64,000 nucleotides of DNA from Auanema rhodensis (lineage: Eukaryota > Animalia > Nematoda), in NCBI GenBank assembly GCA_964057225.1, contig OZ059896.1, positions 18,786,001 through 18,850,000 of the forward strand, read 5' to 3'. The translations under genes were made by a program, and so were the position numbers. Shown in pieces: positions 18,198 to 55,993 of this stretch. Numbering within the stretch: position 1 is the stretch's first letter; every line of letters begins with the position of its first letter. The notes under the pieces were generated by a model, which had not been told where the DNA came from, did no database searches, and worked only from the letters and a program-made list of their open reading frames with translations.

Positions 18198-18580
18198 TGT
18201 CACATCTGCAAGCACATGGTAAACATGTGCGCGCTATTCAAATAGCGGGAGCCTGAACAAGCCCCGCCTACAACATGGGACACACATGTCACTCTTGCTT
18301 CTGGCCTAACCCAGATAGGTTGTCTTATAGCCATGTGAGTCTCATCTCTATATCATCTATATATATATACTCTATTTAATACTTTGTTATATCTCTTTAT
18401 ATTCTTTCTTAATGTAATTCTTATATTGTATTTTCTTGTTATCTGATAATGAATCCTTTTCGCTTTAAGTATTTGTCTTAATAAGGAAATCGGGTCGTTC
18501 GGGTCTGCCTACCTAAGGAACAAGGTAGAAGTACATATATCTTCCGACCATGAAAAGACGGGAAGAAACAATATGTAACG
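18198..18580 (+). repeat. Element A 5' LTR (TG...CG)
   Basis: Direct repeat of 27963-28345; no differences seen by eye. Confidence 0.96.
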
Positions 18581-18593
18581 TGGAGGTTCCACC
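18581..18593 (+). promoter_or_regulatory. Primer-binding site, tRNA-Gln
   Basis: TGGAGGTTCCACC directly after the LTR; complement of the tRNA-Gln 3' end GGTGGAACCT-CCA. Confidence 0.9.
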
Positions 18594-19733
18594 TTGCTTA
18601 CTTTACTGTTAATTTATTGACAGCAAGTTTACGAGACTTTTGGACTTAATTACCCAACAGTGAGGAGTAACCGAGCCGTGCACCATGATTTCCCCAAAAA
18701 TTATTTTGGCTACCACTTCTCCTCCGCTCAACGAAAACTGGGAGGTGTCTGAGACGTTTGGGGAAACTATCAGACAATAGTTTTGACGAGCGTTACCTTT
18801 TTGTTATGCACGCGCGTGCTATTTTGATTCATTACTTTATGATGTGAATGTCCAGTGTGGCAACAGAGCTCACTTTTTAGCTGAGTTGTTTGGAAGCTGG
18901 AGGCTGTTGGGATAATTTTATTTACGATTTTTTGATTTTGATTCACATCCAAGGGTTCATCAGGGTTCCACTCCTGTTAACTCTTTTCTTATTAGTTCAG
19001 AGATAATAAGAATATTTAAATTCCTACCCACCCAAGTCCACTCTACGTCTGCCAACGTTTCCTTTTTCCTATATTATTGACAGATTACTGAATTTAAACT
19101 CCTATATCAATCTTAAATTACCTTCTAAATCTTTGGAAATTAAATTAAAAATTATCTTAATTAAGATTTATTTTGAAATTCTTTCTACAAATCTTAATAA
19201 ACTTTATAAAATTGAACTTAATATACGAGATGAGACATTTTTGTTTACTTTAAGCTTACTCACATTCAAATAGTTGGCCCACGCGTACCAGCTGTTCGAC
19301 ATGTGTAGTCAATAACAGCTGTTAAAATTCAAAAGTTTTCAAACAGGCTTAAGGCACCATCTGTGATTCCTTATTTGTCTCTAAGCTGACATTAGTGATT
19401 ATAATATTCAAATATCACGACAGACGGTCAATGGTTGTTTACCATAAGCGCTAACATCTGGTGTCGTGACACATGGCTGGAGGCGGAGCTTGAAGCTTCA
19501 ACGATCCTCCTTCATCAGACGCCATTGTCACAAACGTTTTTACTGGAGTCTAGTTGCTTCCAGTACGCGCTCTTATATTCATCTAACTGTATTCACCAGC
19601 CACCCTGTCGGACTCGGACATCAGCGAGGAAAACAAAGATCAGGAACAAGGATCACCAGAGGTACGCCAAGTTTTTGAATTTAATTCTAAAAACTTAAAT
19701 ACTCCATCCACCTACCTCTCTTCTTTTGAATTT

Positions 19734-22700
19734 TTGAGAGAAGAAGGTGATTCCTCTTCTTCTTCTCACTCTTCTTCTCTAACAATTAGAACGAGAAGTA
19801 AAAGCAGAAAGGCCATCACTGAGGAAACACCTCGGGCACCTACTACAGTACGAAATAGATCACCAAGTCGGTGGGCCGCTGCTATAACTAAAGCTTTTGA
19901 AAGAAAAATGACTCCTACCTCTCCATCTCCTAATTCTAATGTTGCTCCACCCTCTAGAAATATGGCAACTATTTTGAATTGCCATCTCTGTCCCAGGTAT
20001 GACGGCTCTCGTAGCTTTCGTTCTTTTGTTGAATCTTTAAATAGATTTTTTAATGTTATGAATCTAAGTTTACCTGAGAGACTATTAATTTTACCTCTTC
20101 TTTTGGAATCAAATGAAACAGCTCTCTCCTTGTATAATAGTATTCCTAGTGGCATAAGAACTAATGGCCCATGGATTGTTTTGATGGATCAGCTCACTGA
20201 GCTTTTAGCGCCTAAAACAGATAAAAATTTCACCATAGCGCTTATTCATCGAATACAACAAGGAGATAAATCTGTTCTCGATTTTAGTATGGAATTAGAG
20301 AGAATGGCAAGCACCATAATGTCACCAATGGATCCCGAGCGGGAACCAATGTTGAAAACGGCATTTTTAAATGGTTTAAAAGAGGAACTGGGTATTGCGG
20401 TTTTAACTAAAAACCCCGCCACTTATGAACAAGCTAAGAAATTAGCTAGGTTTGAAGAAGGCGTTCGGAATAGCTTCATGAAAAGAAATGAAGACACCAG
20501 CACCTTGAAGGAGCTCATAAATGCTTTACAACATAAATTAAGCTTTAGTGAAGAAAGAGAAAGAAGTAGGAATAATAATAATAATAAAAATTATAAAAAT
20601 AATAAAAATAATAAAAAAAATAATAACTGGACTCAGCACAATAATGGCTCTAATGATTATGAGCGAGAGAGAGAGCGACCTTCTGCCGTACGTTATAATA
20701 ATAATAATTCGCAGAACGGGAATATGAATAGGCGTCCTAACCCGGGAAACCGCCCATTTGCCAATGGCAGAAATGCCAATAGCTCGTCTTGGAACCCTAG
20801 GCCTAGTTCCCCAAGAAGACAAAGACCATCAGCCAATGGGAATGGTAACTCAAGGGTATACAGCGTAGCGACCCCATTCATGCCACCGGTCACGTTGTGC
20901 CTGACTTTATTGGCACTCTCATGCCTTCCCTTTGGGTCGGCAAAATATCAGATTTGCGCTCAATCTGAAGGGGGTATATTAGTAACACCTCCTGTGGTCA
21001 CAGGCTGCCATAAGGCAGAAATTGAAAAGGCTCACAGTGTTGAGGTAGAAATATATCTACCAAAGGCTGAGATAGAGTCATGGGAAGCATGGAAATGCTA
21101 TGTGAAAAAGTATAAAAGCTGTGTGAGAGATTTCATGTTTTTGAGAGATCGTAACACCACATTCTCTCATATTGAAACAGTAGATAAGAAAGATTGTGTT
21201 CGAGCACATAGAAATCGTATGTGGAATGATAAAATCATGAATGCCCAACAGCATTCAGTTTTTGAAACACCATTAAACGAGCATAATCCAACTCGCTCTT
21301 GGTCCACTGAAGAATGTGTAGAAATTGAACAATTTGTATTGAAGCGAGGGATAATAACTAGATTGAAAGAAGATCACATTGTATCAGACTTATTTATAAA
21401 TACTGATAATTGTAAAGGAAATGAAGGGTTTTGTGCAACTGGTGAAGGTGCAGTTATCTGGCAACCACCTATCCCATCAGTTGTCTGTCACTATCAAAAA
21501 CTTGGCCCCTTCTCCGCCATGTTGGGTGATCATATTCTTCTAGTTCACTCTATTGAAAGCGCTTTTGTTCTCCAAAATCATTCCACATCCGCTCACGTTC
21601 AATCTTGTTTCGAATTCGCTGTTTTTGAATCATCTTCTGAGGCAATTATCCGATTCACAGCATATCCCCGTGTTTATAATTTGCTTGATCTTTCCAATAC
21701 TTTGCTTAATGCTGATAGACGCAGAAATAAACGTAATGCATTACCTCAAAAACATCGCTCTTTCAGTGATGATTATCTTTTTGTTAATGCGAAATCCCAA
21801 TCATATGCGTTTCCATTTCTAAGACCTACTTTCATTTTTGGATCTGCATCTATCACTAAGTTTTACGCAAAATATATGAGATATGCAGCTACATCATCTT
21901 ATGAGAGTTTGCTCCAATTCGCGATAGATAATCCACTGTTCATTGACACAATTGTTAGTTTAGGATTGACAAAAGATCACATAACTAACTGGGCCAAGTC
22001 TAATAATTTCAAAGATCCCAATCTTTTGATTTTACAATGTATGGGTATAGAGGAAATTAAACTGGCTACTAGACAGGTGATTAATAGCATGAAATTGGAT
22101 GATCTTATCACTCAAGTAGCTCGTCGTATAGAAGTTCCTCGGTTAAAAAGATCTTTGATGAAATCTACAACATCCATAGAAGATTTCTTTCGAGGAATGG
22201 CTCACGCAGTAGTATATCAAGCCACAATTCTTGATGGTACACAAACAGTTCCATCAATCGAACAGTTGGCAAGAGCCTTATATCCATCTATATTACCACG
22301 CAGTGGAAATATGAATCAATCTGAAATTATTGCAACTGCTCAAGGCATGTTATTCATGATCCAACAACAATCGGGAAAAGAACAAATATCTCGTGACATG
22401 CAAGTCAGTCGACAACAAAAAGCTGATGCTACTGTTAGAAATAACCAAGAGCAAGATTTAGCAATTATATCCAAGCTGCCTGACTATCACAACCTTTATA
22501 CAAAGAATAGTACAGCATATTATGGATTTCCTCCACAGTCCATCGAATACCCACAGGAAAATCCTAAATTCAATAAAACAGAAGTTTTAGAATTCATAAG
22601 TTGGGTTAAAACTCAAATCACAACTGATAAAAATATGGTGGTACAGCATACTACTGTAACCCCAATAACTTCCACCAAAACTACAATTCGTAGTTTAACA

Positions 22701-25700
22701 ACTCCTACCCCTAATGCGTACGAGAGAGGTCGAGAGTTGTATGTAGCAGAAGTATATGACAATGTTCTCCACAAATCAGAGCATAAAACTAAAACGATAA
22801 TAGATAATAAGTTGAATTATGGGTTTGAGAAAGCGCGTCTCTCCATAATTGACGAATTTCATCAACAGTTTCATACCATCTGTAAATCTCAAATGGAAAC
22901 TGTAAAAAGCTGGCAAGCTATATTACGTATACATCCTACAATAGGAGTACGAGCTATGCTTCAGCGGGATGATATCGTTGCCCGATTTGTTGGAAGAAAT
23001 GTTTTAAAAATAACAACTTGTCAGGAAATAGAACCACATTTCATTTATCGTAATCATTCTTACAATGATAAATGTTATGCAGAGACCCCTGTTTTAACAC
23101 ACGATAAACAATTATTCTTTGCTCCTATCGATAGCTACGATTTGAGCACTGAAGGACATGAGATCAATTGTGAACACAAAGAGACAGAAATTTGGTATGA
23201 AAATGGAACATGGAAAGATTATAAAGGTGACACACATAAAGTAGATAGTATTCATTCAGAAAAACATGATCATTATGCTGAATTGAGTAAACTTCGATTC
23301 ACAGGGCGGAATTTGTTTGAAAATTCGACTGAAAAATCCTTAGCCCTATCTATTGGATTAACTTATGGTTATAGTTTATCTACTTCACCTCACCATGATC
23401 TTCTCCGCGTAATTTCTCGTTCACGTGATTGGCCTCAAATTTCCTCTTTCATCTTCAAAGGAAGTAAACTTATAAGAGATGCCAGGAAAATTGTTTTCTC
23501 CAATTGGGATCTGTTCATTGACTTTTGTATAGGTTCAATTGAACGAACACTCATTACCATCGGTTGTATAACTCTGATATTATGTCTAATGATAGCATTA
23601 TATTTCACTATAAAATGTTATCTCTCCCCTACTTCTATGTTAAAAATAAACCATATCATGTTGAGCCCAACAGCTCCACCTTTTGAGGGAGATGAGATTC
23701 ATGAAACAGTTAGTGATGAATTGATGCGGAGCTATTTTCCCACCATAATAACTTACATTCCTTTAGCCATACCTTTTGTATGTCACACAACAACAAAGAA
23801 AAATGGACACATGTTACCGTTTGTTCATATTGACATTGAAGGTAGAGGACTGTTAGCATTATGGGATTCTGGAGCTACGGTCTCATATATTCCGTTCTCC
23901 ACATTGGCATATATTGGAAGACAATATTTTACAAAATATTCTAAATCTGCATCCACTGCAAATGGATCAGAGTTTCGCTTTGTGGGAAAATGCAAGTTAG
24001 ATGTGGGTATAGCAGGTTACCAAGTGGAACACGAATTTTTAATATCTGAAGACAATGACTGTCCAGGACAAATGTTACTTGGTACTGATTTTATGCGTAC
24101 GTTGGAAGAAAGAGAGATATTTACTACATTAAAACTATGTAAAGGAAAGTTGATTGTTGGTAATATGGAAACACCCTTAGTAAAACCTGGTTGTTTTGCA
24201 TATAAAACCACAACTAAAACAGTAAATATCATAAGTTTGTCCACAGTAACAGTTCCACCACATAGTACCTCCCACATATCTTTGCAAACAGGACCAGAAT
24301 TAGATTTTGATCAATATGCTCTTTTAAAATCTAGCACAGGTCCTATATCAATTCCAGATGCCGCCATAGGACCTTTTCCTATTACTATGGTAGTATCAAA
24401 CAATTCTTCAAAGCCAATTAAAATTAATAAAAATGACCACATTGGTTCAGGACTTATAGCATCTAAAGAAATTATGAACGATTATGTTCCACCTGAAGCT
24501 GATTGGGAAGATAAGTTACCAACTTTTCCTCAGCATCTTTTGGATGATTTGAACTTCAATTCTTGCACTCTGTCTCATAAAATGAAGAAAAATCTGATCA
24601 CAATCATTAAGGAAAACCAAACGGCATTTTTCAACCATGATCATAATATTGGTCTCTTTTGCGGACCAGTTGAACATGCCATTCCTATGAGATCTGATAT
24701 GGATTTTCCAAAAAGTAGATCTTACAGAGTACCATTGGGTAAGCAAGAAGAAGTAGAACGGCAAGTGAAAGAAATGTTGTCGCAAGGTATAATCGAAAAT
24801 TCGACGGCTACTTTCACTAGTCCGGTTGTTCTTGTGAAAAAGAAAGATAATTCTTTCCGGTTCGTTACTGACTTTAGAGCATTGAATAGTGTTACTAAGA
24901 AACAAACATACAGCATCCCACACATTCCTGATATCATAGACTTAGCGGCTGGAGCTCAGTTCTTTTCGAATTTTGATCTCATTTCTGGTTTCTTCCAAAT
25001 ACCGTTGAAACGCTCAGATAGATACTTAACTGCTTTTACCACTCCATCAGGTACCTATCAGTATTGCCGAATGCCTATGGGATTGTGTGGAGCGCCACAC
25101 ACTTTTCAATCCGCAGTACGATACTTGCAATCTCTTGTTAGATGCAAACTGTTTGTATATCTAGATGATTTGCTAATAATTTCGAACTCAGCTGAAGAAC
25201 ATTTAAGAGATATACAAGAAGTGCTGAAAAAGGTCACTGAACTAGGGTTAAAAATTAAGTTATCTAAATGTTGCTTTGCAGCCACTGAAGTAAAGTTTTT
25301 GGGTTTTATAATAGGTAGAAATGGTGTTAAACCAGATCCTGCTAAAATACAGGCTGTTTCCGAATTTCCAAATCCAAGCACAGTTACGGCTGTCAGATCC
25401 TTTCTAGGTATGACTAACTATTTTCGACGGTTTATTCAAAATTATGCCGGAATAGCTGAGCCATTGTATAAGTTAACACATAAGGATACTCCTTTTGAGT
25501 GGAAATCGGAACATGCAGACGCATTTGAAACTTTAAAAACATTACTGTGTACTGCCCCTGTACTGAAACCTCCTAAAGCAGACCAACCTTTTGTTATAGA
25601 AAGTGATGGCAGTATGATCGCTGTGGGAGCAGTTTTATTGCAATCAGCAGAGAAAAATTCTCCATTACACCCGATTGCGTTCGCTAGTAGAAAGTTGACT

Positions 25701-27344
25701 CCAGCGGAACGGAAATATCCTCCTATTGAAGTTGAAGCACTCGGTTTAGTCTTTGCTCTTCAACAATTCCGTACCTATGTATTAGGAGTACCTACCACAG
25801 TTATCACAGATCACCGACCATTAACCAGTTTAATGTCGCGTAAAGATCTCATAGGTAGATTAGCCAAGTATCAACTAATGATACAAGATTTCAACATAAA
25901 GATTGAATATCGTCCTGGCAAATTAAACAGTGTCTGTGATGCTCTCTCCAGGTATATAGGAAACGAAGCAAATGACAGTCGTCCTACTAAACCAAAGGAC
26001 AAAGTAAAACCTGTTGATGCTTTTATTGCTCATATCACAACTATTTCTTCTATTGACCAACTAAATTGTGAAGAAATACGGAAAGTTCAAGCTGGAGTTC
26101 CCTGGATTCGCGAAGCACTTTCTCAAATTAATAATGATAACTGTCCGGCTAATATATCAGACCGGTATGAAGAACGAGAAGGCATATTACATGCAAAACA
26201 AGCGAAAAATTATTTGAAACCATCTATTATTTTGCCTCGTAACGACAAAATAACTGATGTTGTTATCAAGTTTTTTCATGAAGATTCCAAAATTGGTGCA
26301 CACCTAGGTATAAATAAAACTACTGATGCGATTCGACGACGATTCTTTTGGACTAATATGGTTCCACAAATAACTGAATTTATTAATCGTTGTACAAAAT
26401 GTGCAAGTAGGAAATCTAACCCACACCAATCGTATATTCAACCTATGGGAAGATTTGTTATACCCGAAAAGCCATTTGATCGTATTCATGTAGATATACT
26501 AGGTCCTTTACCTCGCACTAATGATGGACATCGATACATCTTGAGTATTCAAGACGCTTTTAGTAAATGGGGAACAACTTGCCCATTAATAACACAAACG
26601 GCTACTGAAATCACAAAAGCGTTTGTAATTAGATTTGTTTTCATATATGGACCACCAATGAGTATGATAACTGATAATGGTAGTAGCTTTTTGTCATCTG
26701 AATTTCAAGCTATGTGTAAACAATTTGGAATTAAACACACTACTACGCTACCATATCATAAAAATGCTAATGGACAAGTTGAGAGACTTCATAGAACTTT
26801 GGAAGAAGCTCTCTCTTCATTCGTGAATGAACAACAAACTAACTGGGATATACACCTACCTAAAGTTATGTTTGCGATCAATACGTTACCAAACTCATCA
26901 ACATCTATTAGTCCATATGTTGTATTATTTGGTCGGGATGCAAGACTTCCTATTGACCATCAATTGCCTGGAAATAATCTTCAAACTGAAGAACCAGCCA
27001 ATCCTACAGAAGATTTTGTCAATAGATCGCTAATACAAAATGAAAGCACATCTAATATAGTAAAAGATAGAATTGAAACATGCACAAAGAAGAATGAACA
27101 ACGGTACAATACACGAAATAGAACACAAAATAAAGAAATTCAGGTTAATGACTTAGTTATGATAAAAGTGAATTCTACTCGAAACAAACTAACACCTTCA
27201 TTCGAAGGGCCTTATTTAGTTACAGCAGTTCAAAGATCTTTCGTCGTGGTTCAAACAGATAAAGGAAAAAGCAGAAGAGTACACAAGGACTTCGTCAAAC
27301 CTTACCAACGGACAACATCTATTCCGGTTATCACAATTTCTTGA
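19734..27344 (+). CDS. Gag-Env-Pol polyprotein (first in-frame ATG at 19908)
   Basis: Capsid-like region (LKTAFLNGLKEEL), signal peptide ~20880-20942, Cys-rich ectodomain, TM ~23547-23612, protease LWDSGAT, RT YLDD, RNase H (ESDGS, TDHRPL), integrase HHCC/DDE and GPY. Confidence 0.95.
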   Translation: MREEGDSSSSSHSSSLTIRTRSKSRKAITEETPRAPTTVRNRSPSRWAAAITKAFERKMTPTSPSPNSNVAPPSRNMATILNCHLCPRYDGSRSFRSFVESLNRFFNVMNLSLPERLLILPLLLESNETALSLYNSIPSGIRTNGPWIVLMDQLTELLAPKTDKNFTIALIHRIQQGDKSVLDFSMELERMASTIMSPMDPEREPMLKTAFLNGLKEELGIAVLTKNPATYEQAKKLARFEEGVRNSFMKRNEDTSTLKELINALQHKLSFSEERERSRNNNNNKNYKNNKNNKKNNNWTQHNNGSNDYERERERPSAVRYNNNNSQNGNMNRRPNPGNRPFANGRNANSSSWNPRPSSPRRQRPSANGNGNSRVYSVATPFMPPVTLCLTLLALSCLPFGSAKYQICAQSEGGILVTPPVVTGCHKAEIEKAHSVEVEIYLPKAEIESWEAWKCYVKKYKSCVRDFMFLRDRNTTFSHIETVDKKDCVRAHRNRMWNDKIMNAQQHSVFETPLNEHNPTRSWSTEECVEIEQFVLKRGIITRLKEDHIVSDLFINTDNCKGNEGFCATGEGAVIWQPPIPSVVCHYQKLGPFSAMLGDHILLVHSIESAFVLQNHSTSAHVQSCFEFAVFESSSEAIIRFTAYPRVYNLLDLSNTLLNADRRRNKRNALPQKHRSFSDDYLFVNAKSQSYAFPFLRPTFIFGSASITKFYAKYMRYAATSSYESLLQFAIDNPLFIDTIVSLGLTKDHITNWAKSNNFKDPNLLILQCMGIEEIKLATRQVINSMKLDDLITQVARRIEVPRLKRSLMKSTTSIEDFFRGMAHAVVYQATILDGTQTVPSIEQLARALYPSILPRSGNMNQSEIIATAQGMLFMIQQQSGKEQISRDMQVSRQQKADATVRNNQEQDLAIISKLPDYHNLYTKNSTAYYGFPPQSIEYPQENPKFNKTEVLEFISWVKTQITTDKNMVVQHTTVTPITSTKTTIRSLTTPTPNAYERGRELYVAEVYDNVLHKSEHKTKTIIDNKLNYGFEKARLSIIDEFHQQFHTICKSQMETVKSWQAILRIHPTIGVRAMLQRDDIVARFVGRNVLKITTCQEIEPHFIYRNHSYNDKCYAETPVLTHDKQLFFAPIDSYDLSTEGHEINCEHKETEIWYENGTWKDYKGDTHKVDSIHSEKHDHYAELSKLRFTGRNLFENSTEKSLALSIGLTYGYSLSTSPHHDLLRVISRSRDWPQISSFIFKGSKLIRDARKIVFSNWDLFIDFCIGSIERTLITIGCITLILCLMIALYFTIKCYLSPTSMLKINHIMLSPTAPPFEGDEIHETVSDELMRSYFPTIITYIPLAIPFVCHTTTKKNGHMLPFVHIDIEGRGLLALWDSGATVSYIPFSTLAYIGRQYFTKYSKSASTANGSEFRFVGKCKLDVGIAGYQVEHEFLISEDNDCPGQMLLGTDFMRTLEEREIFTTLKLCKGKLIVGNMETPLVKPGCFAYKTTTKTVNIISLSTVTVPPHSTSHISLQTGPELDFDQYALLKSSTGPISIPDAAIGPFPITMVVSNNSSKPIKINKNDHIGSGLIASKEIMNDYVPPEADWEDKLPTFPQHLLDDLNFNSCTLSHKMKKNLITIIKENQTAFFNHDHNIGLFCGPVEHAIPMRSDMDFPKSRSYRVPLGKQEEVERQVKEMLSQGIIENSTATFTSPVVLVKKKDNSFRFVTDFRALNSVTKKQTYSIPHIPDIIDLAAGAQFFSNFDLISGFFQIPLKRSDRYLTAFTTPSGTYQYCRMPMGLCGAPHTFQSAVRYLQSLVRCKLFVYLDDLLIISNSAEEHLRDIQEVLKKVTELGLKIKLSKCCFAATEVKFLGFIIGRNGVKPDPAKIQAVSEFPNPSTVTAVRSFLGMTNYFRRFIQNYAGIAEPLYKLTHKDTPFEWKSEHADAFETLKTLLCTAPVLKPPKADQPFVIESDGSMIAVGAVLLQSAEKNSPLHPIAFASRKLTPAERKYPPIEVEALGLVFALQQFRTYVLGVPTTVITDHRPLTSLMSRKDLIGRLAKYQLMIQDFNIKIEYRPGKLNSVCDALSRYIGNEANDSRPTKPKDKVKPVDAFIAHITTISSIDQLNCEEIRKVQAGVPWIREALSQINNDNCPANISDRYEEREGILHAKQAKNYLKPSIILPRNDKITDVVIKFFHEDSKIGAHLGINKTTDAIRRRFFWTNMVPQITEFINRCTKCASRKSNPHQSYIQPMGRFVIPEKPFDRIHVDILGPLPRTNDGHRYILSIQDAFSKWGTTCPLITQTATEITKAFVIRFVFIYGPPMSMITDNGSSFLSSEFQAMCKQFGIKHTTTLPYHKNANGQVERLHRTLEEALSSFVNEQQTNWDIHLPKVMFAINTLPNSSTSISPYVVLFGRDARLPIDHQLPGNNLQTEEPANPTEDFVNRSLIQNESTSNIVKDRIETCTKKNEQRYNTRNRTQNKEIQVNDLVMIKVNSTRNKLTPSFEGPYLVTAVQRSFVVVQTDKGKSRRVHKDFVKPYQRTTSIPVITIS
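20880..23700 (+). other. Envelope glycoprotein domain, class III fusogen-like (herpes gB / chuvirus G type)
   Basis: Hydrophobic signal TLCLTLLALSCLPFGSA, N-glycosylation sequons, furin-type site RRRNKR (21717-21734), gB-like block ICKSQ..W....IHPT....R..VARFVG.VL.ITTC...CY..TPV, C-terminal TM. Recognised by motif only. Confidence 0.75.
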
Positions 27345-27950
27345 AGGTAGTTTTTTTTTTAACAAAATCAAATTGTTGAAATTTTTTTATTTTATTTTGT
27401 GCCATTTCTGATTGTACCACTTCTTTGTTGTTGATTGATTTTCTCTGAGAAGTCTGCTATTGTTTTACAAAAGTTTGTTTTATTACTCCAACTCTCATTG
27501 AGTAGATTTTTTTTTTTTCAACATTCTCTTGTGAATTTTGCTATTTTTTATGCTTAATCATTACTTGTATTCACCTTATGGACATTAGTCATACGGGTTA
27601 AACGAGTTTTCATTTTTTTGTACAGAACGGGCTCGACCTATTCTCAGGGTAACACCGTACCTGTACAACTCGAGAAAATGAACGACTATATCACAGTCGA
27701 ATGGTTTAGAAGCAAAGCTCTCGTTTGCAAGCATTTCACTACTCAAGTGAATGGAATAGAATCTATTCGATACTACATTTTGAATTCAACAAACTTGAAG
27801 AGACAATAGCTAAACTTTCAAATCGTATTGTATACATTATTTTTTATCGACTACACCATGATTTTTTTTTTGTTATCTTTTTCCAACATCCAACTATCTT
27901 AAAAAGTGAATTAATTTATTTTGTTTTTGAACGAGGACGTTCAACTTTTT

Positions 27951-27962
27951 AAGGTGGGGGGA
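27951..27962 (+). promoter_or_regulatory. Polypurine tract of element A
   Basis: AAGGTGGGGGGA immediately before the 3' LTR. Confidence 0.9.
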
Positions 27963-28345
27963 TGTCACATCTGCAAGCACATGGTAAACATGTGCGCGCT
28001 ATTCAAATAGCGGGAGCCTGAACAAGCCCCGCCTACAACATGGGACACACATGTCACTCTTGCTTCTGGCCTAACCCAGATAGGTTGTCTTATAGCCATG
28101 TGAGTCTCATCTCTATATCATCTATATATATATACTCTATTTAATACTTTGTTATATCTCTTTATATTCTTTCTTAATGTAATTCTTATATTGTATTTTC
28201 TTGTTATCTGATAATGAATCCTTTTCGCTTTAAGTATTTGTCTTAATAAGGAAATCGGGTCGTTCGGGTCTGCCTACCTAAGGAACAAGGTAGAAGTACA
28301 TATATCTTCCGACCATGAAAAGACGGGAAGAAACAATATGTAACG
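27963..28345 (+). repeat. Element A 3' LTR
   Basis: Copy of 18198-18580, followed by TSD AAAT and resumption of the array unit. Confidence 0.96.
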
Positions 28346-37047: not shown

Positions 37048-39737
37048 TGTCACATCTGCAAGCACATGGTAAACATGTGCGCGCTATTCAAATAGCGGGA
37101 GCCTGAACAAGCCCCGCCTACAACATGGGACACACATGGCACTCTTGCTTCTGGCCTAACCCAGATAGGTTGTCTTATAGTCATGTGAGTCTCATCTCTA
37201 TATCATCTATATATATACTCTATTTAATACTTTATTAGATCTCTTTATATTCTTTCTTAATGTAACTCTTATATTGTATTTTCTTGTTATCTGATAATGA
37301 ATCCTTTTCTCTTTAAGTATTTGTCTTAATAAGGAAATCGGGGCGTTCGGATCTGCCTACCTAAGGAACAAGGTAGAAGTACATATATCTTCCGACCATG
37401 AAAAGACGGGAAGAAACAATATGTAACGTGGAGGTTCCACCTTGCTTACTTTACTGTTAATTTATTGACAGCAAGTTTACGAGACTTTTGGACTTAGTTA
37501 CCCAACAGTGAGGAGTAACCGAGCCGTGCACCATGATTTCCCCAAAAATTATTTCGGCTACCACTTCTCCTCCGCTCAACAAAAACTGGGAGGTGTCTGA
37601 GACGTTTGGGGAAACTATCAGACAATAGTTTTGACGAGCGTTACCTTTTTGTTATGCACGCGCGTGCTATTTTGATTCATTACTTTATGATGTGAATGTC
37701 CAGTGTGGCAACAGAGCTCACTTTTTAGCTGAGTTGTTTGGAAGCTGGAGGCTGTTGGGATAATTTTATTTACGATTTTTGATTTTGATTCACATCCAAG
37801 GGTTCATCAGGGTTCTACTCCTGTTAACTCTTTTCTTATTAGTTCAGAGATAATAAGAATATTTAAATTCCTACCCACCCAAGTCCACTCTACGTCTGCC
37901 AACGTTTCCTTTTTCCTATATTATTGACAGATTACTGAATTTGAATTCCTATATCAATCTTAAATTACCTTCTAAATCTTTTGAAATTAAATTAAAAATT
38001 ATCTTAATTAAGATTTATTTTGAAATTCTTTCTACAAATCTTAATAAACTTTATAAAATTGAACTTAATATACGAGATGAGACATTTTTGTTTACTTTAA
38101 GCTTACTCACATTCAAATAGTTGGCCCACGCGTACCAGCTGTTCGGCATGTGTAGTCAATAACAGCTGTTAAAATTCAAAAGTTTTCAAACAGGCTTAAG
38201 GCACCATCTGTGATTCCTAATTTGTCTCTAAGCTGACATTAGTGATTATAATATTCAAATATCACGACAGACGGTCAATGGTTGTTTACCATAAGCGCTA
38301 ACATCTGGTGTCGTGACACATGGCTGGAGGCGGAGCTTGAAGCTTCAACGATCCTCCTTCATCAGACCCCATTGTCACAAACGTTTTTACTGGAGTCTAG
38401 TTGCTTCCAGTACGCGCTCTTATATTCATCTAACTGTATTCACCAGCCACCATGTCGGACTCGGACATCAGCGAGGACAACAAAGATTAGGAACAAGGAT
38501 CACCAGAGCCATACCTTTTGTATGTCACACAACAACAAAGAAGAATGAACAACGGTTAATGACTTAGTTATGATAAAAGTGAATTCTACTCGAAACAAAC
38601 TAACACCTTCATTCGAAGGGCCTTATTTAGTTACAGCAGTTCAAAGATCTTTCGTCGTGGTTCAAACAGATAAAGGAAAAAGCAGAAGAGTACACAAGGA
38701 CTTTGTCAAACCTTACCAACGGACAACATCTATTCCGGTTATCACAATTTCTTGAAGGTAGTTTTTTTTTAACAAAATCAAATTGTTGAAATTTTTTTAT
38801 TTTATTTTGTGCCATTTCTGATTGTACCACTTCTTTGTTGTTGATTGATTTTCTCTGAGAAGTCTGCTATTGTTTTACAAAAGTTTGTTTTATTACTCCA
38901 ACTCTCATTCAGTAGATTTTTTTTTCAACATTCTCTTGTGAATTTTGCTATTTTTTATGCTTAATCATTACTTGTATTCACCTTATGGACATTAGTCATA
39001 CGGGTTAAACGAGTTTTCATTTTTTTGTACAGAACGGGCTCGACCTATTCTCAGGGTAACACCGTACCTGTACAACTCGAGAAAATGAACGACTATATCA
39101 CAGTCGAATGGTTTAGAAGCAAAGCTCTCGTTTGCAAGCATTTCACTACTCAAGTGAATGGAATAGAATCTACTCGATACTACATTTCGAATTCAACAAA
39201 CTTGAAGAGACGATAGCTAAACTTTCAAATCGTATTGTATACACTTTTTTTTTATCCACTACACCATGATTTTTTTTCCAACACCCAACTATCTTAAAAA
39301 ATGAATTAATTTATTTGTTTTTGAACGAGGACGTTCAACTTTTTAAGGTGGGGGGATGTCACATCTGCAAGCACATGGTAAACATGTGCGCGCTATTCAA
39401 ATAGCGGGAGCCTGAACAAGCCCCGCCTACAACATGGGACACACATGGCACTCTTGCTTCTGGCCTAACCCAGATAGGTTGTCTTATAGTCATGTGAGTC
39501 TCATCTCTATATCATCTATATATATACTCTATTTAATACTTTATTAGATCTCTTTATATTCTTTCTTAATGTAACTCTTATATTGTATTTTCTTGTTATC
39601 TGATAATGAATCCTTTTCTCTTTAAGTATTTGTCTTAATAAGGAAATCGGGGCGTTCGGATCTGCCTACCTAAGGAACAAGGTAGAAGTACATATATCTT
39701 CCGACCATGAAAAGACGGGAAGAAACAATATGTAACG
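37048..39737 (+). mobile_element. Element B: non-autonomous, internally deleted member of family A (2690 bp)
   Basis: 381-bp LTRs (37048-37428, 39357-39737), TSD CAAA, PBS TGGAGGTTCCACC at 37429, PPT; leader and 3' region retained, ~7.4 kb of coding sequence missing. Confidence 0.97.
38509..38755 (+). pseudogene. Remnants of family A polyprotein (pre-protease linker and integrase C-terminus)
   Basis: AIPFVCHTTTKK and MIKVNSTRNKLTPSFEGPY...ITIS are identical to parts of the element A ORF. Confidence 0.92.
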
Positions 39738-40786: not shown

Positions 40787-40800
40787 GTCTAACTGTCTAA

Positions 40801-43009
40801 ATCCTAACTCTTTGGGATTCAGGATCATCGATTAGTTATATCAGACTCTCGACATTACATTACTTAACTTTGAATGATTTTATAAAAAAGGATAAATCAG
40901 TTGCAACGACAGCAAACGGATCAGCATTTCGATTTCTGGGAACAATTGATTTAACCGTAGAAATCGCTGGATATGAAATAGATCATACATTCTTCATTTC
41001 AAGAGATGAAGACTGTCCATCACCAGCATTAATTGGATTAGATTTTATGAAAACACTCGATCGTCAAAATATCGGTATGAAACTTCGACCATTCAAACAA
41101 ACGTTAGAAATCGGAAACCGCGTAGTACCGTTAGCCAATGGAAATAACGGGAATATTAAAAAAACATCATTTGTCATTAACTTGATAAATTTAAATCCAC
41201 AATGTATCTTTCCTCATCAGACCTGTAGAATACCAGTAAGGTTAGCTGAACCCATATCACACAACGAAGTCGCCGTGCTACAACCCGATGAAGAAAAGAC
41301 GATATCTACCACCTACGAAACAGCATCTCGAGACGTCAATTCAATTACCATGACATTCAAAAACAACACTGATCATCCTATAGATCTATCACCCGGAAAC
41401 ATTATTGACAAAGCAAAAATAGGCGTACTGCCACAATACGAGATCTTTACGACCGAACACAATCCAGACTATATACCACCCGAAGCGGATTGGGAAAATA
41501 AATTACCTCATTTTCCTCAGGACTTTATGAACGATCTTGATTTAAAAGACGCCGACCTAACTAAAGAACAAAAAGATCTTCTTCAGCTTTGTATTCTACG
41601 TAATAGAGATGCATTTTTAAATGAGGATAAACAAATAGGACTATTTAAAGGACCTGTAGAGCATTCAATACCTCTAAGAACAGATATGGACATGCCTAGA
41701 CCGCGTATAACGCGTATCCCTATAGGCAAACAAGAAGAAGTCGAAAGACAGGTACAGGAGATGCTGAACCAAAATATAATTGAACCATCCACATCTCTTT
41801 TCAATAGTCCTGTAGTTTTAGTCAAAAAGAAAGATGAAACATTCCGTTTCGTAACCGATTTCCGTGCTCTAAATAACGTCACTCGCAAGCAAACGTACAT
41901 CATACCTAACATTTCTGACATTGTCGATATGGCAGCCGGATCACAATATTTTTCTAACTTTGATTTAGTATCCGGATTCTTCCAAATAGCATTAAAGAAA
42001 TCAGATCGACCATTAACAGCATTTACAACAAACACCGGTACTTATCAATATAGAAGGATGCCTATAGGGTTATGTGGAGCGCCACATACCTTTCAAACAG
42101 CAGTACGATACCTTCAAAGCCGATGTAAATGCCGACTCTTTGTTTATTTGGATGATTTACTTGTTATATCAGACACTACAGAACAACATCTTGACGATAT
42201 AGCTGAGATTCTCAGAGAAGTAAAGAAATTAGGCATGAAAATTAAACTCAAGAAATGCGCTTTTGCAAGACCTGAAGTAAAATTTCTTGGTTTAATTGTC
42301 GGAAAAGATGGGGTCAAACCAGATCCACAGAAAGTCTCCGCCATTCAAGACTATCCTGCTCCAAAGTCATCTACTGGAGTAAGAGCATTTTTGGGAATGG
42401 TAGGATTCTTTCGGAAATTTATTAAAGATTTTGCACACATCGCAAGCCCTTTATACGACCATACAAAACTTGATGTGGAATTTCAATGGAATGACAAAAG
42501 TCAACAAGCTGTTGATACACTAAAAAGAAAATTGATCCAAGCACCGGTCTTAAAACCACCAAGATCAGACCGTATGTTCATTATAGAAAGTGACGGTAGT
42601 AATATCGCAGTGGGAGCAGTGTTATTACAACCTGAAGATCCCAATGAACCACTCAAAAACTTACATCCAATTGCATTTGCAAGCCGTAAACTTGTAAAAG
42701 CGGAACGTAACTATGCTCCTATTGAAATAGAAGCGTTAGGACTCGTATACGCTTTAGCTCAGTTTCGAACATATATACTTGGATCACATACAATCTGTAT
42801 CACAGACCATCGACCATTAACAAGCTTATTGACTCGTAGAGACCTTTTTGGAAGACTAGCAAAATTTCAATTAGTCATACAGGAATACGATATCGAGATA
42901 AGATACCGAGAAGGCAGACTAAACAAAGTCTGTGATGCTCTCTCATTGGAGATGAAGCAAACGATCCTAAACCGGAAAAGAAAAAGAAAACAAAAGAAAT
43001 TCCGAACCT
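40801..43009 (+). pseudogene. Element C: LTR-less gypsy pol fragment (PR-RT-RNase H) of a sister family of A
   Basis: Frame from 40801 reads ILTLWDSGSSISYI, then YLDD, ESDGS, TDHRPL; DYIPPEADWENKLP versus DYVPPEADWEDKLP in A; small frameshifting deletion after CDALS; no LTR, gag or integrase. Confidence 0.93.
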
Positions 43010-44109
43010 TACCTTATGAGAAAACCTTCGGAGAATTTTTGAAAAAAAAAAACCTTCGGAGAATTTTTGATATTTTCTCACTCTGAATAGGAACATTCTC
43101 GAGAATATTATCACTGCATTTGTTTTACTGCTAGTATTTTTTTCAATTGTATGAGATAATACAGAATAAAACATGTAATTTATCAGGTAATGATTTTTTT
43201 TAAACAAAAAATAACGACCCTGGCAGGACTCGAACCTACAATCTTCGGATCCGAAGTCCGACGCCTTATCCATTAGGCCACAAGGCCATGTAAATCGCAT
43301 TCAAATTAGACAATTTGTATAACCCAACCCAGTAACTCACTAAAATGTAGTTGATTTTTTCATCGATTCTAGGTCTGAAAAAATAATAATATGAAATAAT
43401 ACTTTTATTTTAGTACCTTATGAGAAAACCTTCGGGAAATTTTTGATATTTTCTCACTCTGAATAGGAACATTCTCGAGAATATTATCACTGCATTTGTT
43501 TTACTGCTAGTATTTTTTTCAATTGTATGAGATAATACAGAATAAAACATGTAATTTATCAGGTAATGATTTTTTTTAAACAAAAAATAACGACCCTGGC
43601 AGGACTCGAACCTACAATCTTCGGATCCGAAGTCCGACGCCTTATCCATTAGGCCACAAGGCCATGTAAATCGCATTCAAATTAGACAATTTGTATAACC
43701 CAACCCAGTAACTCACTAAAATGTAGTTGATTTTTTCATCGATTCTAGGTCTGAAAAAATAATAATATGAAATAATACTTTTATTTTAGTACCTTATGAG
43801 AAAACCTTCGGGAAATTTTTGATATTTTCTCACTCTGAATAGGAACATTCTCGAGAATATTATCACTGCATTTGTTTTACTGCTAGTATTTTTTTCAATT
43901 GTTTGAGATAATACAGAATAAAACATGTAATTTATCAGGTAATGATTTTTTTAAAACAAAAAATAACGACCCTGGCAGGACTCGAACCTACAATCTTCGG
44001 ATCCGAAGTCCGACGCCTTATCCATTAGGCCACAAGGCCATGTAAATCGCATTCAAATTAGACAATTTGTATAACCCAACCCAGTAACTCACTAAAATGT
44101 AGTTGATAT
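43010..44109 (-). repeat. Inverted tRNA-Arg array segment (genes 43215-43287, 43591-43663, 43967-44039)
   Basis: Reverse complement of the array unit. Confidence 0.96.
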
Positions 44110-44136
44110 TGTCGCGATAAGCGAGTAGGTTTTGTT

Positions 44137-44161
44137 TTTGTTATCTCTATCTCTCTCTATA

Positions 44162-44196
<35 letters not shown>

Positions 44197-44200
44197 TTAT
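44137..44200 (+). repeat. (CT)n/(CTAT) microsatellite within the element D LTR
   Basis: TCTCTCTC run; 8 bp longer in the 3' LTR copy. Confidence 0.9.
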
Positions 44201-44443
44201 CTCCTTCCTTTGTAACTAGATCAAAACACATATGCATGACATATGTGTTAACATGTGGCATAAGTAACAGTTTATTTCAGACGACCGCCCAACAACGGAG
44301 GACAGTCTTACATTTTCAACGTTCGCAGTCAGTGATTTTATTCCGTGCTTGTCTTGTTAATTCATCAATAAACCCTTTTCTACATATTTGCTTTGTGTTT
44401 TACTTCCAACCATACTATACACTTGTGGTATAACGCCACAAAT

Positions 44444-44455
44444 TGGTGCATCGGC
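44444..44455 (+). promoter_or_regulatory. Primer-binding site, tRNA-Gly
   Basis: TGGTGCATCGGC 3 nt after the LTR; complement of the tRNA-Gly(GCC) 3' end GCCGATGCA-CCA. Confidence 0.85.
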
Positions 44456-44728
44456 TAGTTTAGATCTTAGCCGCTTTAAGTCCCACGTGGCAGGTGAGAT
44501 ACAACTCGAACCAAGCGTGTTTGAGCAAAAAACATACTTAATAAAAATCGTGGCGATCATAAGTCCACGTCAAGTCACACCAAACAGACTTGAACAATAA
44601 GCAAACTCTGAAATTAGAAACAGAGGTTTCAATTTCCTTACGTTCACATATACTGTGATCACCAAACAAACAAAGAAAAAAGAAAACAAAAAAGGAATAT
44701 AAGCATTATTCCTACATCTACAACAAAA

Positions 44729-47700
44729 ATGTCACTCCTTTTTGTCAATCATATCAAACAATCTAACCAGTTTCTTGGAGAACTGCTTACACGATACGAG
44801 ATGGAAGTGAAGGACCTTCCTGTTATTCTGGTAGATTGCGACTTCCACACTGAGGAAGAAGAGGAAACCCTCTCTTGCCTTATCATTCGCTGGACAAAAG
44901 TCCAACACCAATTCAAAGAATCGTTGAAAAATCATCAAGATAACGAGAAAAAATTCCAAAAATTTTACGAAGCATCAGACAAAACGCTTCGTAAAGCATT
45001 AGACGAACAGTACATCGCCTTCACATCCGGTGAAGACTTTGAACCCAACATTAAAAAGGTTCAAAACGCCATTATTGAGCTTGACGAACACATCATGAAA
45101 GCCGAACGCATACTTAGAAAGCTGAGAAAAACGCTTCATAAGAATGAATCTGAGCACAACAGCAATTGCTCAACAGAAAACAATGAAACAGAAAACAAAT
45201 CGAATGATCAATTTCTGGAAATTATCAAGTCATTCCTACACATCCAACAAACTAGCATCCAAAAACCAGCGATGTCGCTACCTACATTTGATGGCAAACC
45301 AGAGAACTTCAAATCATTCTGGGGCCGTTTTGATAGACTTGTTCATGATAATGAACAGTTTACAACCTTAGAAAAGGTAAACCTACTCTGTGAAAGCCTC
45401 AAAGGCAATTCACAAATAGCAATCAGAGGAATAGAACCCTCTGCTCAAAATTATGAGCTCATGCGTGAAGCATTAGTTTCTGAATTTGGAGACTATTCGT
45501 CGGATATCAACTCTCTTTTAACACAACTACGTAATTTGAGATTTGCAAGCAATAATGCAAAAGCATGCAAAGAAACATTTGGAGAAACCAAGGCACTTAT
45601 CAGGCAAATTGAAGCAGCCGGAGCTACAGTATCCCGCGAAATGTGTACCGCGATGATTCTCAACAAATTCCCATACCACATCATGGAAGACATTCTAATT
45701 CATCCAAACAACTACCATTCTACTAAAGAAATGCTGGCAGCTGTAGACCATAAAATCTATTCGTTTATTCTAAAAGAACAAACAAGAAATAGTCATGAAC
45801 AAAAGTTTCGAAATCACAAAGACAATGTCACATCTGTTTCACATAAAGACAGCACTGCAGAACAACGGAAAACCCAAACTTGGCCATGTGTCTTTTGCGA
45901 CTCATCCGAGCATCGTTTTTATCAATGCACCACATTTGAAACACCAGAGAAAAGAAGGTACCGCATTCGCGGAAAGGCCATCTGTTGGATTTGCTTTTCC
46001 GATAAACACAAAAGTTCGGAATGCAGAAAACAAAAATGTCGCAATTGCCAAGGAGATCATAATTCTGCCTTGTGCTCACAAGGAAGAAAAAGTGTACAAA
46101 ATATCCAAAAAGATAAAGAAACTCCCACAATTAAAAAAGATCAGGCTTTACTGATCACCACAGAAGAATTATTGAATAAAAAAACAACAGAATATAAACA
46201 AGAATCTGACACTAATAATCGAATCCCTACTGAGGCACTTAATGCACCAGTATCGCTTAATCACATTGCCGACACCCATAATATTGAAGAAAGTCAAGTA
46301 ATATTACGAACAGCAATGGCGAACATATACAACCACAATAGTAAAAAATATGAGCAAGTACGCATGCTCATAGATGAAGGATCCATGAGATCTTTTATAT
46401 CCAAGGACTTATCCACTAAGTTAGGATTGCCCATCCTTGGTTCTCAAAAGAAAACCTTTTACGGTATCGGAGCATTGTCCGAAACGCACGAAGTTCAGGA
46501 CGTAAAGGTAATTATTGGAACCTCAAGTGGATCCCTTATCGTAACAAAACTATTCACCAAACCCATGTTAACCACACCCATACGTTGTCCAAAACTATCT
46601 AAAGAAGACTTGAAATTTATAAAGACAAGAAAAATAAAATTAGCCAATCCACAAACAAACGGAGAATCATTTACTCCGGATATACTGATAGGTATGGATA
46701 GATACAAACTGTTCATGCATTTAAACGAAGAAACCGAACTCCCCTCACGTATGAGTTTGAAAAATTCGGTATTCGGCCACATGATACATGGAGAAGCTCC
46801 TCTTCCCCATGATAATACACAACAAGAAGTAATATTATGCTCTACAGTAGAAGAAATAACAAAAGAAACCTCTCATAAAGAACTCCTCACTAATCTGTTT
46901 GAACTGGATTCTATCGGCATCAATACAGAAAATGCCAACGCAGACCGCACTATTGATTACTATGAAGAATACTCGAAAGATATAAAAATTGAGAACAACC
47001 GTATTATTGCACCGTTCCCGTTAAAAAATAACTTCAAAAATCTTAAAAACAACAAAATGCCCGCGTACCATAGATTCGTATCCCTATGGCGAAAGTTACT
47101 GCACAATCCAGAAATGCTCTCACACTATACTACAACCATTGAAAGTTACCTCAAAGATAACATTGTCGAACAAATTCCCAACAATCACCAGGAGCCTTTA
47201 GAGTTTTATATGCCCCACCATGGGGTTTGGAAGCCCAGCAAGGCTAACCCTCTCAGAATCGTTTTTGACGCCTCCGCTAAACAGAAAGACAGCCCGTCGT
47301 TGAATGAGATAATACACACAGGACGATCATTTATCACATATATACACGACATCATGATCTCCTGCAGAACAAGACCAATATTAATAACATGCGATATCAA
47401 AGCCGCATTTTTACAAATACAACTGACAGAGAATCACAAAAATCTATGCAAATTCTTTTGGATAAAAAACAAAGAATACCCAATATCTCACAACAATATC
47501 ATAACCCTTCGATTCAACAGATTACCGTTCGGTATCACTGCATCCCCCAGCGTATTGAACATGGGCATAAAATGGTTCTTAGAATCAAAAGTAGACAACC
47601 CATTAGCTATGGAAATACTGAACAACTTATACGTTGACAATATCATTCTTACAGCAAATACAACAGCAGAAACTATAAAGAAATGTAAAGAAACCCAAAA

Positions 47701-52660: not shown

Positions 52661-52934
52661 TAAAGAAGATATAAAAGGTAGAATAAACAAAAGCAAAGTA
52701 TAAACTAAAATTCACATAAATAAAATAAACCAAGGAGAAAAGAGAAGGGATTAATTTCTGAAATAATAAAGTAACACGAATCTGCTAGTTTTACTTAAGA
52801 TATCTAATCTGTAGTATTGAATTACATAATAACTCGTTAACAGACGTTTAATGGATAATATCAAAAACAGAAGGATACCATATTAATCCCTGAATGACGC
52901 AATATATCCATATCCAAGAACAGACGCCAACCAG

Positions 52935-52971
52935 TATATAAGGTGGCTAAACAAGTTTGCCTCAACTCAGT
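52935..52971 (+). promoter_or_regulatory. Putative internal promoter (TATATAA plus TCAGT initiator-like motif) for the accessory ORF
   Basis: TATATAA at 52935, TCAGT at 52967, ATG at 52975. The CTCAG could instead be a splice acceptor. Confidence 0.45.
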
Positions 52972-52974
52972 ACA

Positions 52975-53436: not shown

Positions 53437-53508
53437 GTCTTTACACTCTTGCCGCGAGTGTCGCGATAAGCGAGTAGGTTTTGTTTTTGTTATCTCTATC
53501 TCTCTCTA

Positions 53509-53553
<45 letters not shown>

Positions 53554-53797
53554 TTATCTCCTTCCTTTGTAACTAGATCAAAACACATATGCATAACATA
53601 TGTGTTAACATGTGGCATAAGTAACAGTTTATTTCAGACGACCGCCCAACAACGGAGGACAGTCTTACATTTTCAACGTTCGCAGTCAGTGATTTTATTC
53701 CGTGCTTGTCTTGTTAATTCATCAATAAACCCTTTTCTACATATTTGCTTTGTGTTTTACTTCCAACCATACTATACACTTGTGGTATAACGCCACA

Positions 53798-55980: not shown

Positions 55981-55993
55981 TCCCCGGCCTCTC
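55981..55993 (-). promoter_or_regulatory. Polypurine tract of element F
   Basis: GAGAGGCCGGGGA on the minus strand directly before the 3' LTR TGTCAAG. Confidence 0.75.

What the first reader, a model, noticed from the sequence alone, without database searches (positions are those of the whole stretch)
38500..38560. Element B is a retrotransposed spliced RNA, recording a gag/env-skipping pol splice
Seen: comparing B with A gives three deletions. (1) 19662-23766 (4105 nt) has ends CAGAG|GTACGC...TTCCTTTAG|CC. (2) A 3291-nt loss lies between two ACAAAGAA copies (23793-23800 and 27084-27091). (3) 27104-27143 (40 nt) has ends ACG|GTACAA...ATTCAG|GT. Deletions 1 and 3 are exact GT-AG introns; deletion 2 fits an RT template switch. 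Splice 1 removes Gag and Env and lands 44 nt before the in-frame ATG (23811) preceding the protease. Inference: family A makes a spliced pol mRNA, reminiscent of foamy viruses, which would let Pol be made independently of the membrane-anchored Env. That RNA was packaged and integrated with its own TSD.
Basis: partly seen in the sequence, partly recalled or inferred. Interest (0 to 1): 0.82.

Follow-up and report, generated by a model that had tools for sequence, protein, structure and literature searches.

The report
Spliced, jumping copy of a retrotransposon
A short copy of an envelope-carrying jumping gene, likely from a nematode, lacks two exactly intron-shaped pieces, so it likely arose from spliced RNA copied back into the genome, but the main splice shifts the reading frame and likely yields no polymerase.

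Summary
B (37048-39737) has identical LTRs and its own 4-bp target duplication, and differs from A (18198-28345; one Gag-gB-like Env-Pol ORF) by three deletions at the stated places. Two are exact GT-AG (about 0.4-0.5% each by chance). The third lies in a 15/17 repeat.

Junction 1 is in 4 of 4 DNA runs and 3 of 4 putative RNA runs. Deletion 2 occurs both with and without the 40-nt intron, so B likely belongs to a small non-autonomous lineage that lost introns stepwise.

The foamy-like pol mRNA is not supported. Splice 1 is out of frame with pol, two out-of-frame ATGs precede ATG 23811, that Met is conserved in 0 of 68 homologues, and splice 3 frameshifts integrase. No contig joins junction 1 to pol, although short contigs cannot exclude it.

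Closest known: MLV's splice-derived retroelement SDARE. A belongs to the described nematode GAG-ENV-POL elements, a layout the scan noted before in another genome (e1-8581169). Open lead: the same acceptor is in frame with donors at 20845 (Gag/Env border) and 19747, which would skip Env. No such joint was seen.

The parts
18198..28345 (+). Element A, full-length Ty3/gypsy element with Gag-Env-Pol order; TSD AAAT
18198..18580 (+). A 5' LTR (383 bp, identical to the 3' LTR at 27963-28345; ends TG...CG)
18581..18592 (+). Primer-binding site complementary to the tRNA-Gln 3' end (same in B at 37429-37440)
   Evidence: same 12-mer listed as Gln for Caenorhabditis elements in PMC13524379 supplement file 2
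19587..19907 (+). 107 open codons in the polyprotein frame upstream of the first ATG; near-cognate codon in strong context at 19605, where B has ATG (38452)
   Evidence: chance about 0.001-0.002
19662..23766 (+). Intron 1 (4105 nt, GT-AG): donor phase 0, acceptor frame +1; removes Gag and Env
   Evidence: joint
19747..19754 (+). Candidate phase-1 donor, in frame with acceptor 23766 (no joint seen)
19908..27344 (+). 2478-codon ORF: Gag, signal/TM (about aa 324), gB-like Env, TM (about aa 1215), protease (D1320), RT, RNase H, integrase
20845..20852 (+). Candidate phase-1 donor at Gag codon 313, just before the Env signal peptide; in frame with acceptor 23766 (no joint seen)
23767..23800 (+). 34-nt piece kept in B (38509-38542); holds out-of-frame ATG 23780. 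ATG 23803 (frame +1) and ATG 23811 (pol frame) follow
23801..27091 (+). Deletion 2 (3291 nt, not GT-AG) between 15/17-identical 17-mers at 23793 and 27084
   Evidence: joint
27104..27143 (+). Intron 3 (40 nt, GT-AG) inside integrase; removal frameshifts the last 79 codons; kept in some deletion-2 copies, removed in others
37048..39737 (+). Element B, 2690 bp, non-autonomous; LTRs 37048-37428 and 39357-39737 identical; TSD CAAA; PBS and polypurine tract kept
38452..38490 (+). B's N-terminal exon frame: ATG at 38452, closed by a stop at 38488-38490
38508..38555 (+). The three junctions in B

Best explanation
B is a short copy with its own target duplication and identical LTRs that likely arose when a spliced RNA of the A family was packaged, reverse-transcribed and integrated by helper proteins; its splices are frameshifting and likely non-productive rather than a route to Pol. 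Steps. (1) Shown: A encodes Gag, gB-like Env and Pol in one frame, so Pol needs no separate mRNA; the protease is inferred to free it after the Env membrane anchor. (2) Inferred: some genomic RNA is spliced 19661^23767 and keeps the LTR sequences, PBS, leader and PPT, so it can still be packaged. (3) Inferred: RT jumps between the 15/17 repeats and deletes pol, giving a junction-1 + deletion-2 copy that still carries the 40-nt intron. That form is seen in one phased contig, and its deletion-2 end is seen in DNA. (4) Inferred: freed of coding constraint, a transcript of such a copy lost the 40-nt intron and was integrated again, giving the B type. The result is a parasitic, SDARE-like lineage that rides on full-length copies.
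For: Exact GT-AG ends twice; null 0.36-0.50% each. Donor 19662 ranks 6 of 430 GT sites and acceptor 27143 ranks 6 of 536 AG sites with a recalled nematode matrix. Own TSD, identical LTRs, PBS and PPT. Junction 1 in 4 of 4 DNA runs from 3 studies, on contigs of depth similar to the gag contigs (781 vs 446, 2036 vs 2458, 8.4 vs 7.4, 156 vs 152). Deletion 2 runs on into the intron's first bases in X1 and X6, and into the spliced form in X5 and X9. X13 record 13 (389 nt) phases junction 1, deletion 2 and the kept intron; X15 record 25 (1008 nt) phases all three junctions, and 12 of its 16 3'-part variants are not in B. Frame arithmetic: both splices shift frame. Precedent: MLV SD' RNA is packaged, reverse-transcribed and integrated (PMC2925334, PMC10496198; passages).
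Against: The other two sites are weak: acceptor 23766 ranks 90 of 536 and donor 27104 ranks 108 of 430 (the matrix is recalled and C. elegans-like, the host species unknown). A 4.1-kb splice to a weak acceptor just before protease is oddly placed for a purely cryptic event, and in-frame donors for it exist. All 8 runs laid are contigs. Their RNA label is a guess, junction forms also stand in DNA, and contigs can be chimeric between copies, so live splicing and the order of events are not shown. Contig depth is not copy number, so the size of the lineage is unknown and could be as few as two copies. No whole genome is held.
Confidence: 0.62

Rival explanations
1. Acceptor 23766 is a functional Env-skipping site. 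Its normal partners would be the phase-1 donors at 20845 (Gag fused in frame to Pol, Env removed) or 19747 (short leader fused to Pol). Junction 1 is then a mis-paired by-product. The element would switch between an enveloped form and an intracellular form.
For: Only 2 of 71 phase-1 GT sites between 19605 and 23700 score 1.72 or more, and one (20845) sits at Gag codon 313, about 11 codons before the Env signal peptide. Both are in frame with the acceptor. The acceptor lies 33 codons before the protease Asp and upstream of the conserved protease start.
Against: No such joint in 4 putative RNA or 4 DNA runs (cover over gag and env was thin). The 5% chance figure for the 20845 position is post hoc, with the cut-off set at that site's own score. 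The acceptor lies in a peptide conserved at protein level, and only 3 of 7 close homologues have a residue pair there that could hold a phase-1 AG (read). No env-bearing relative with DNA was found to test conservation.
Confidence: 0.15
2. Junction 1 is the first joint of a multi-exon accessory mRNA, like Cer1 cerv or MLV P50. Deletion 2 erased the later joints.
For: Cer1 makes a five-exon mRNA that shares Gag N-terminal peptides and has one small exon in another frame (PMC10309623, PMC3315495; passages). Here a 19-codon exon joins a 29-codon +1 frame that holds a further GT at 23842. Donor 19662 is in frame with acceptor 27143, ahead of the integrase C-terminal part, as in P50.
Against: A has no long ORF after pol (alternative frames of 60 codons or more reach at most 92 codons), and its 3' non-coding part varies by indels. 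All three frames close within a few codons of junction 3 except the pol frame, which junction 3 does not enter. No further joints were seen.
Confidence: 0.1
3. One reading: splice 1 makes a foamy-virus-like pol mRNA translated from ATG 23811.
For: The acceptor lies 44 nt before an in-frame ATG just ahead of protease, and the intron removes Gag and Env. Foamy viruses use a suboptimal acceptor upstream of the Pol start (PMC3705302; passages).
Against: ATG 23780 and strong-context ATG 23803 come first; 23803 opens a 17-codon frame overlapping 23811, whose context is weak. There are nine more ATGs in the leader. Met at D-18 in 0 of 68 homologues, and anywhere in D-24 to D-17 in 7 of 68, against 10 expected. 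Pol is already in frame with Gag-Env, unlike foamy pol. No contig joins junction 1 to pol.
Confidence: 0.08
4. All three deletions are DNA-level or RT-level microhomology events, and the GT-AG ends are chance.
For: Each deletion has microhomology (2, 8 and 3 nt), and both GT-AG junctions stand in DNA runs, so RNA junctions prove nothing alone.
Against: Only 0.50% of random deletions with 2-3 nt microhomology read GT-AG, and 0.03% reach the splice score of the weaker pair. The same breakpoint recurs in 7 of 8 runs with no scatter, although this may be shared descent.
Confidence: 0.05

Closest known systems
MLV SDARE (splice-donor-associated retroelement, from SD' RNA; PMC2925334, PMC10496198)
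   Same: A spliced subgenomic RNA that keeps its cis signals is packaged, reverse-transcribed and integrated as a defective element; the donor is in the 5' gag frame and the acceptor far downstream.
   Different: SDARE's splice is in frame and encodes P50/P60. Here the join is frameshifted, B has a stop in its first exon, and the copy stands in the host genome with an added homology-driven deletion and a second intron loss.
Nematode GAG-ENV-POL errantiviruses with HSV/gB-type Env (Chary and Hayashi, eLife 2026, PMC13524379; Sacco et al. 2022, cited there, not read)
   Same: Element A has the same gene order, a gB-type Env and a tRNA-Gln PBS; its closest named proteins come from Caenorhabditis and Auanema.
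   Different: The eLife main text has no occurrence of 'splic'. It describes intact elements only; no splice-derived copy appeared in the passages seen.
C. elegans Cer1 and its spliced cerv mRNA (PMC3315495, PMC10309623)
   Same: Nematode Ty3/gypsy element with one long ORF whose RNA carries usable splice sites that must be skipped for genomic RNA.
   Different: Cer1 has no gB Env and has a large post-pol ORF used by the spliced mRNA. A has none, and no protein product of its splices is evident.
Foamy virus spliced pol mRNA (PMC3705302)
   Same: A splice removes gag and lands upstream of protease at a weak acceptor.
   Different: Foamy Pol has its own ORF and start codon and is never fused to Gag. 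Here Pol is fused in frame, the Met is not conserved, and upstream ATGs intervene.

Membership tests
GAG-ENV-POL gB-type Ty3/gypsy errantivirus (element A) | Env between Gag and Pol; Pol order PR-RT-RH-IN | tested here: met
   Pfam order in the 2478-aa ORF; hydrophobic stretches at aa 324 and 1215; capsid-like match shared with homologues
GAG-ENV-POL gB-type Ty3/gypsy errantivirus (element A) | HSV/gB-type Env | tested here: met
   Profile of 31 sequences hits gB in PDB at E 3e-12; 25 of 31 members match Monjiviricetes_fusion and 20 of 31 Glycoprotein_B. The AlphaFold model (pLDDT 68, pTM 0.47) hits herpesvirus gB at E 4e-10, but TM-scores are only about 0.2. A alone is below Pfam's cut-off.
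GAG-ENV-POL gB-type Ty3/gypsy errantivirus (element A) | LTRs and tRNA PBS (Gln in Caenorhabditis members) | tested here: met
GAG-ENV-POL gB-type Ty3/gypsy errantivirus (element A) | Placement in the published RT tree | not tested
   No tree was built
Splice-derived defective retroelement (SDARE-like; element B) | Integrated copy with two LTRs, PBS, PPT and own TSD | tested here: met
Splice-derived defective retroelement (SDARE-like; element B) | Internal loss matches splice donor and acceptor exactly | tested here: met
   Two of three deletions; null 0.36-0.50% each
Splice-derived defective retroelement (SDARE-like; element B) | The splice is shown in RNA made from the full-length element | tested here: inconclusive
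   Junctions in putative RNA contigs also stand in DNA; no raw or long reads were offered
Splice-derived defective retroelement (SDARE-like; element B) | Encodes an accessory protein (as P50) | tested here: not met
   B's exon frame stops at codon 13; only a 60-codon integrase tail from an internal ATG remains
Foamy-type pol mRNA | pol is a separate ORF, not fused to gag | tested here: not met
   One 2478-codon frame
Foamy-type pol mRNA | Own Pol start codon reached after the acceptor and kept across relatives | tested here: not met
   Third ATG after the acceptor, weak context; 0 of 68 homologues
Foamy-type pol mRNA | Spliced RNA that spans pol | tested here: inconclusive
   None seen; unitigs break in the 36 nt shared by both paths, so DNA cannot phase it

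The most novel reading that the evidence does not exclude
Gag-Env-Pol elements of nematodes use a splice acceptor between the Env anchor and protease to drop Env on demand. An in-frame splice from the Gag/Env border (20844^23767) would give an envelope-free Gag-Pol for transposition inside the cell, while unspliced RNA gives enveloped particles. B is the genomic fossil that exposes this acceptor.
Probability: 0.15. Interest if true: 0.72.

Novelty: new member of a known kind. Interest (0 to 1): 0.38.

Why it matters
How single-ORF Gag-Env-Pol elements control the amounts of Gag, Env and Pol is not addressed in the one paper held that describes them ('splic' and 'frameshift' do not occur in its main text). 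B is sequence evidence that their RNA is spliced and that spliced RNA can be packaged and fixed in the host genome, losing introns step by step. It marks an acceptor just before protease that long-read RNA can test directly. If that acceptor serves an in-frame Env-skipping mRNA, it would be a new switch between virus-like and transposon-like life cycles. If not, B is a tidy natural counterpart of MLV's SDARE.

Tried and rejected
Whole-genome search for other copies: no genome is held.

RNA evidence: no listed holder is on record as RNA. X12-X15 are guessed RNA, from one study, contigs only, and no silent control stretch was laid, so expression is not shown. These four runs cover pol more evenly than gag/env. 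I do not count this for an Env-skipping RNA, because contigs cannot rank parts and 3' bias gives the same picture.

DNA depth of pol versus the env end, as a hint of junction-1 copies that keep pol: 490 vs 354, 2493 vs 2306, 9.9 vs 9.3-12.4, 191 vs 190-198. There is no consistent surplus, and depth is not copy number, so this was not used.

Homologue search among 1362-4337-aa proteins with residues 1180-1480 gave none. DNA of relatives: none in viral contigs. The 16 metagenome and 2 genome loci match only RT/integrase, with 0 of 18 showing gag, env or protease matches, so splice-site conservation could not be tested.

Deletion 2 as an intron: no GT-AG register (one search gives AC..GC); rejected. 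P0012, a C. nigoni gene model joining gag to protease, was not taken as evidence of Env skipping: it is an unverified model that breaks inside the capsid match.

Look-alike earlier findings by place: none. Sacco et al. 2022 is not in the library, so it may bear on splicing and was not seen.

Full report
Setting. The window is mostly a 377-bp tandem array with one tRNA-Arg(TCG) gene per unit (34 genes in 17000-56000), interrupted by LTR elements. Element A (18198-28345) has identical 383-bp LTRs, the target duplication AAAT and one 2478-codon ORF (19908-27344). Pfam finds protease, RT, RNase H and integrase in Ty3/gypsy order, and a sub-threshold herpes gB match before them. A profile of the Env region and 30 homologues hits solved gB structures at E 3e-12. 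The folded model hits gB at E 4e-10, with low TM-scores. Of 10 homologues looked up, 9 carry names, all nematode (Caenorhabditis, Auanema, Pristionchus), so the host is likely a rhabditid nematode. The PBS complements the 12-mer listed as tRNA-Gln for Caenorhabditis GAG-ENV-POL errantiviruses. A therefore belongs to a described kind (PMC13524379; passages and supplement rows seen).

Observation. B (37048-39737) has identical 381-bp LTRs, its own duplication CAAA, PBS and polypurine tract. It differs from A by 30 substitutions and 7 small indels, so it is a sister copy and not a local duplicate. The three deletions are as reported. Deletions 1 (4105 nt) and 3 (40 nt) read GT-AG. Of 2,000,000 random deletions, 0.36% can be read so, and 0.50% of the 312,831 with 2-3 nt microhomology; 0.03% of the latter reach the splice score of the weaker pair (the scoring matrix is recalled, C. 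elegans-like). Each intron pairs one strong site (donor 19662, rank 6 of 430; acceptor 27143, rank 6 of 536) with one weak site (acceptor 23766, rank 90; donor 27104, rank 108). Deletion 2 has no GT-AG register. It joins 17-mers that match at 15 places, the best match available from the 34-nt piece, which fits an RT template switch or microhomology repair.

Public runs. Fifteen runs hold A's inner part; none is on record as RNA. I laid 8 of the 15, all contigs. In DNA, junction 1 appears in 4 of 4 runs (3 studies), on contigs of depth similar to the gag contigs. Deletion 2 continues into the first bases of the 40-nt intron in X1 and X6 and into the intron-less form in X5 and X9. In guessed-RNA runs (one study), junction 1 appears in 3 of 4. 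X13 record 13 carries junction 1, deletion 2 and the intact intron on one 389-nt contig. X15 record 25 carries all three junctions, but 12 of its 16 3'-part variants are absent from B. So the short form is a lineage or set of alleles, not one accident, and intron 3 was likely lost after deletion 2. Limits: contigs can be chimeric, drop bubbles and give no copy number. DNA unitigs break in the 36 nt shared by the full-length and junction-1 paths, so a junction-1 copy that keeps pol can be neither shown nor excluded. Because the junctions stand in DNA, junction reads in RNA do not prove splicing.

Does splice 1 make Pol? The polyprotein frame is open for 107 codons upstream of ATG 19908 (chance about 0.001-0.002). 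At 19605, in strong start context, A has a near-cognate codon and B has ATG. The three junction-1 contigs share B's letter. Donor 19662 follows codon 19 of this frame in phase 0, and the acceptor enters frame +1, which closes after 29 codons. Downstream of the acceptor, ATG 23780 and strong-context ATG 23803 precede weak-context ATG 23811. Among 68 homologues with at least 40 residues before the protease Asp, none has Met at that offset. Splice 3 frameshifts the last 79 integrase codons. Foamy Pol has its own ORF and start (PMC3705302; passages), whereas here Pol is already fused and, by topology, would lie on the cytosolic side of the Env anchor (inference). The foamy analogy therefore fails on two tested features.

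Best reading. A spliced RNA kept all cis signals, was packaged, and suffered a homology-driven deletion in the same or a later round of copying. The copy became a non-autonomous element, and a later transcript lost a small nematode-sized intron that coding constraint no longer protected. This works like MLV's SDARE (PMC2925334, PMC10496198; passages), but without a protein product. Cer1 shows that nematode Ty3/gypsy RNAs carry usable splice sites that must be skipped (PMC3315495, PMC10309623; passages). Confidence 0.62; that the two GT-AG losses are splices at all, about 0.9.

Open lead. The acceptor is in frame with phase-1 donors. Of 71 such GT sites between 19605 and 23700, the two best are 19747 and 20845, the latter at Gag codon 313 just before the Env signal peptide. 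That splice would remove Env cleanly from Gag-Pol. No such joint appears in the 8 runs, the positional chance (5%) is post hoc, and only 3 of 7 close homologues have residues compatible with an AG at the same place (read). No env-bearing relative with DNA was found. I give it 0.15.

Print record. Ten paper searches listed no paper on splicing or splice-derived copies in GAG-ENV-POL elements. The eLife main text has no 'splic'. Sacco et al. 2022 is not held, and most subscription papers are missing, so absence from print is not established. PMC9094657 (passages) describes the Atlas-type elements to which the neighbouring Bel/Pao element is similar. The scan's earlier notes hold the Gag-Env-Pol layout in another genome (e1-8581169) but no spliced copy.

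Verdict. Real feature. The splice-derived origin is well supported; the pol-mRNA function is not. New member of a known kind, interest 0.38.

Noticed in passing
window 1-54548: 377-bp tandem array with one tRNA-Arg(TCG) per unit, with inverted pieces at 43049-44110 and 53800-54548. A and B end 70 and 30 nt before the next tRNA gene, in the same orientation; targeting cannot be told in so short a unit.
   Followed up: partly
window 19587-19907: 107 open codons and a near-cognate start in strong context upstream of the Gag ATG, reminiscent of MLV glyco-Gag's CUG start; the ATG allele travels with the junction-1 contigs.
   Followed up: partly
window 18575-18580, 28340-28345, 37423-37428, 39732-39737: LTRs of A and B end TG...CG rather than the usual TG...CA (usual form recalled).
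   Followed up: no
window 19662 and 27143: The two strongest sites used are in frame with each other; that join would put a 19-residue acidic peptide on the integrase C-terminal part, like MLV P50. No such joint was seen.
   Followed up: partly
window 40787-43086: Truncated relative of A's protease-RT-RNase H (65% nucleotide identity over 1366 nt), at the point where the array changes orientation.
   Followed up: partly
window 44110-53810: Bel/Pao element with a 2643-codon ORF ending in a phlebovirus G2-like glycoprotein (Atlas-like), plus a 153-codon ORF at 52975-53436 with no Pfam match; LTRs 96% alike.
   Followed up: no
window 55602-63225 (minus strand): Ty3/gypsy element with identical 379-bp LTRs, pol split over two ORFs, and a 394-codon ORF without Pfam match after integrase (57310-56126), the position of Cer1's CERV half.
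   Followed up: no
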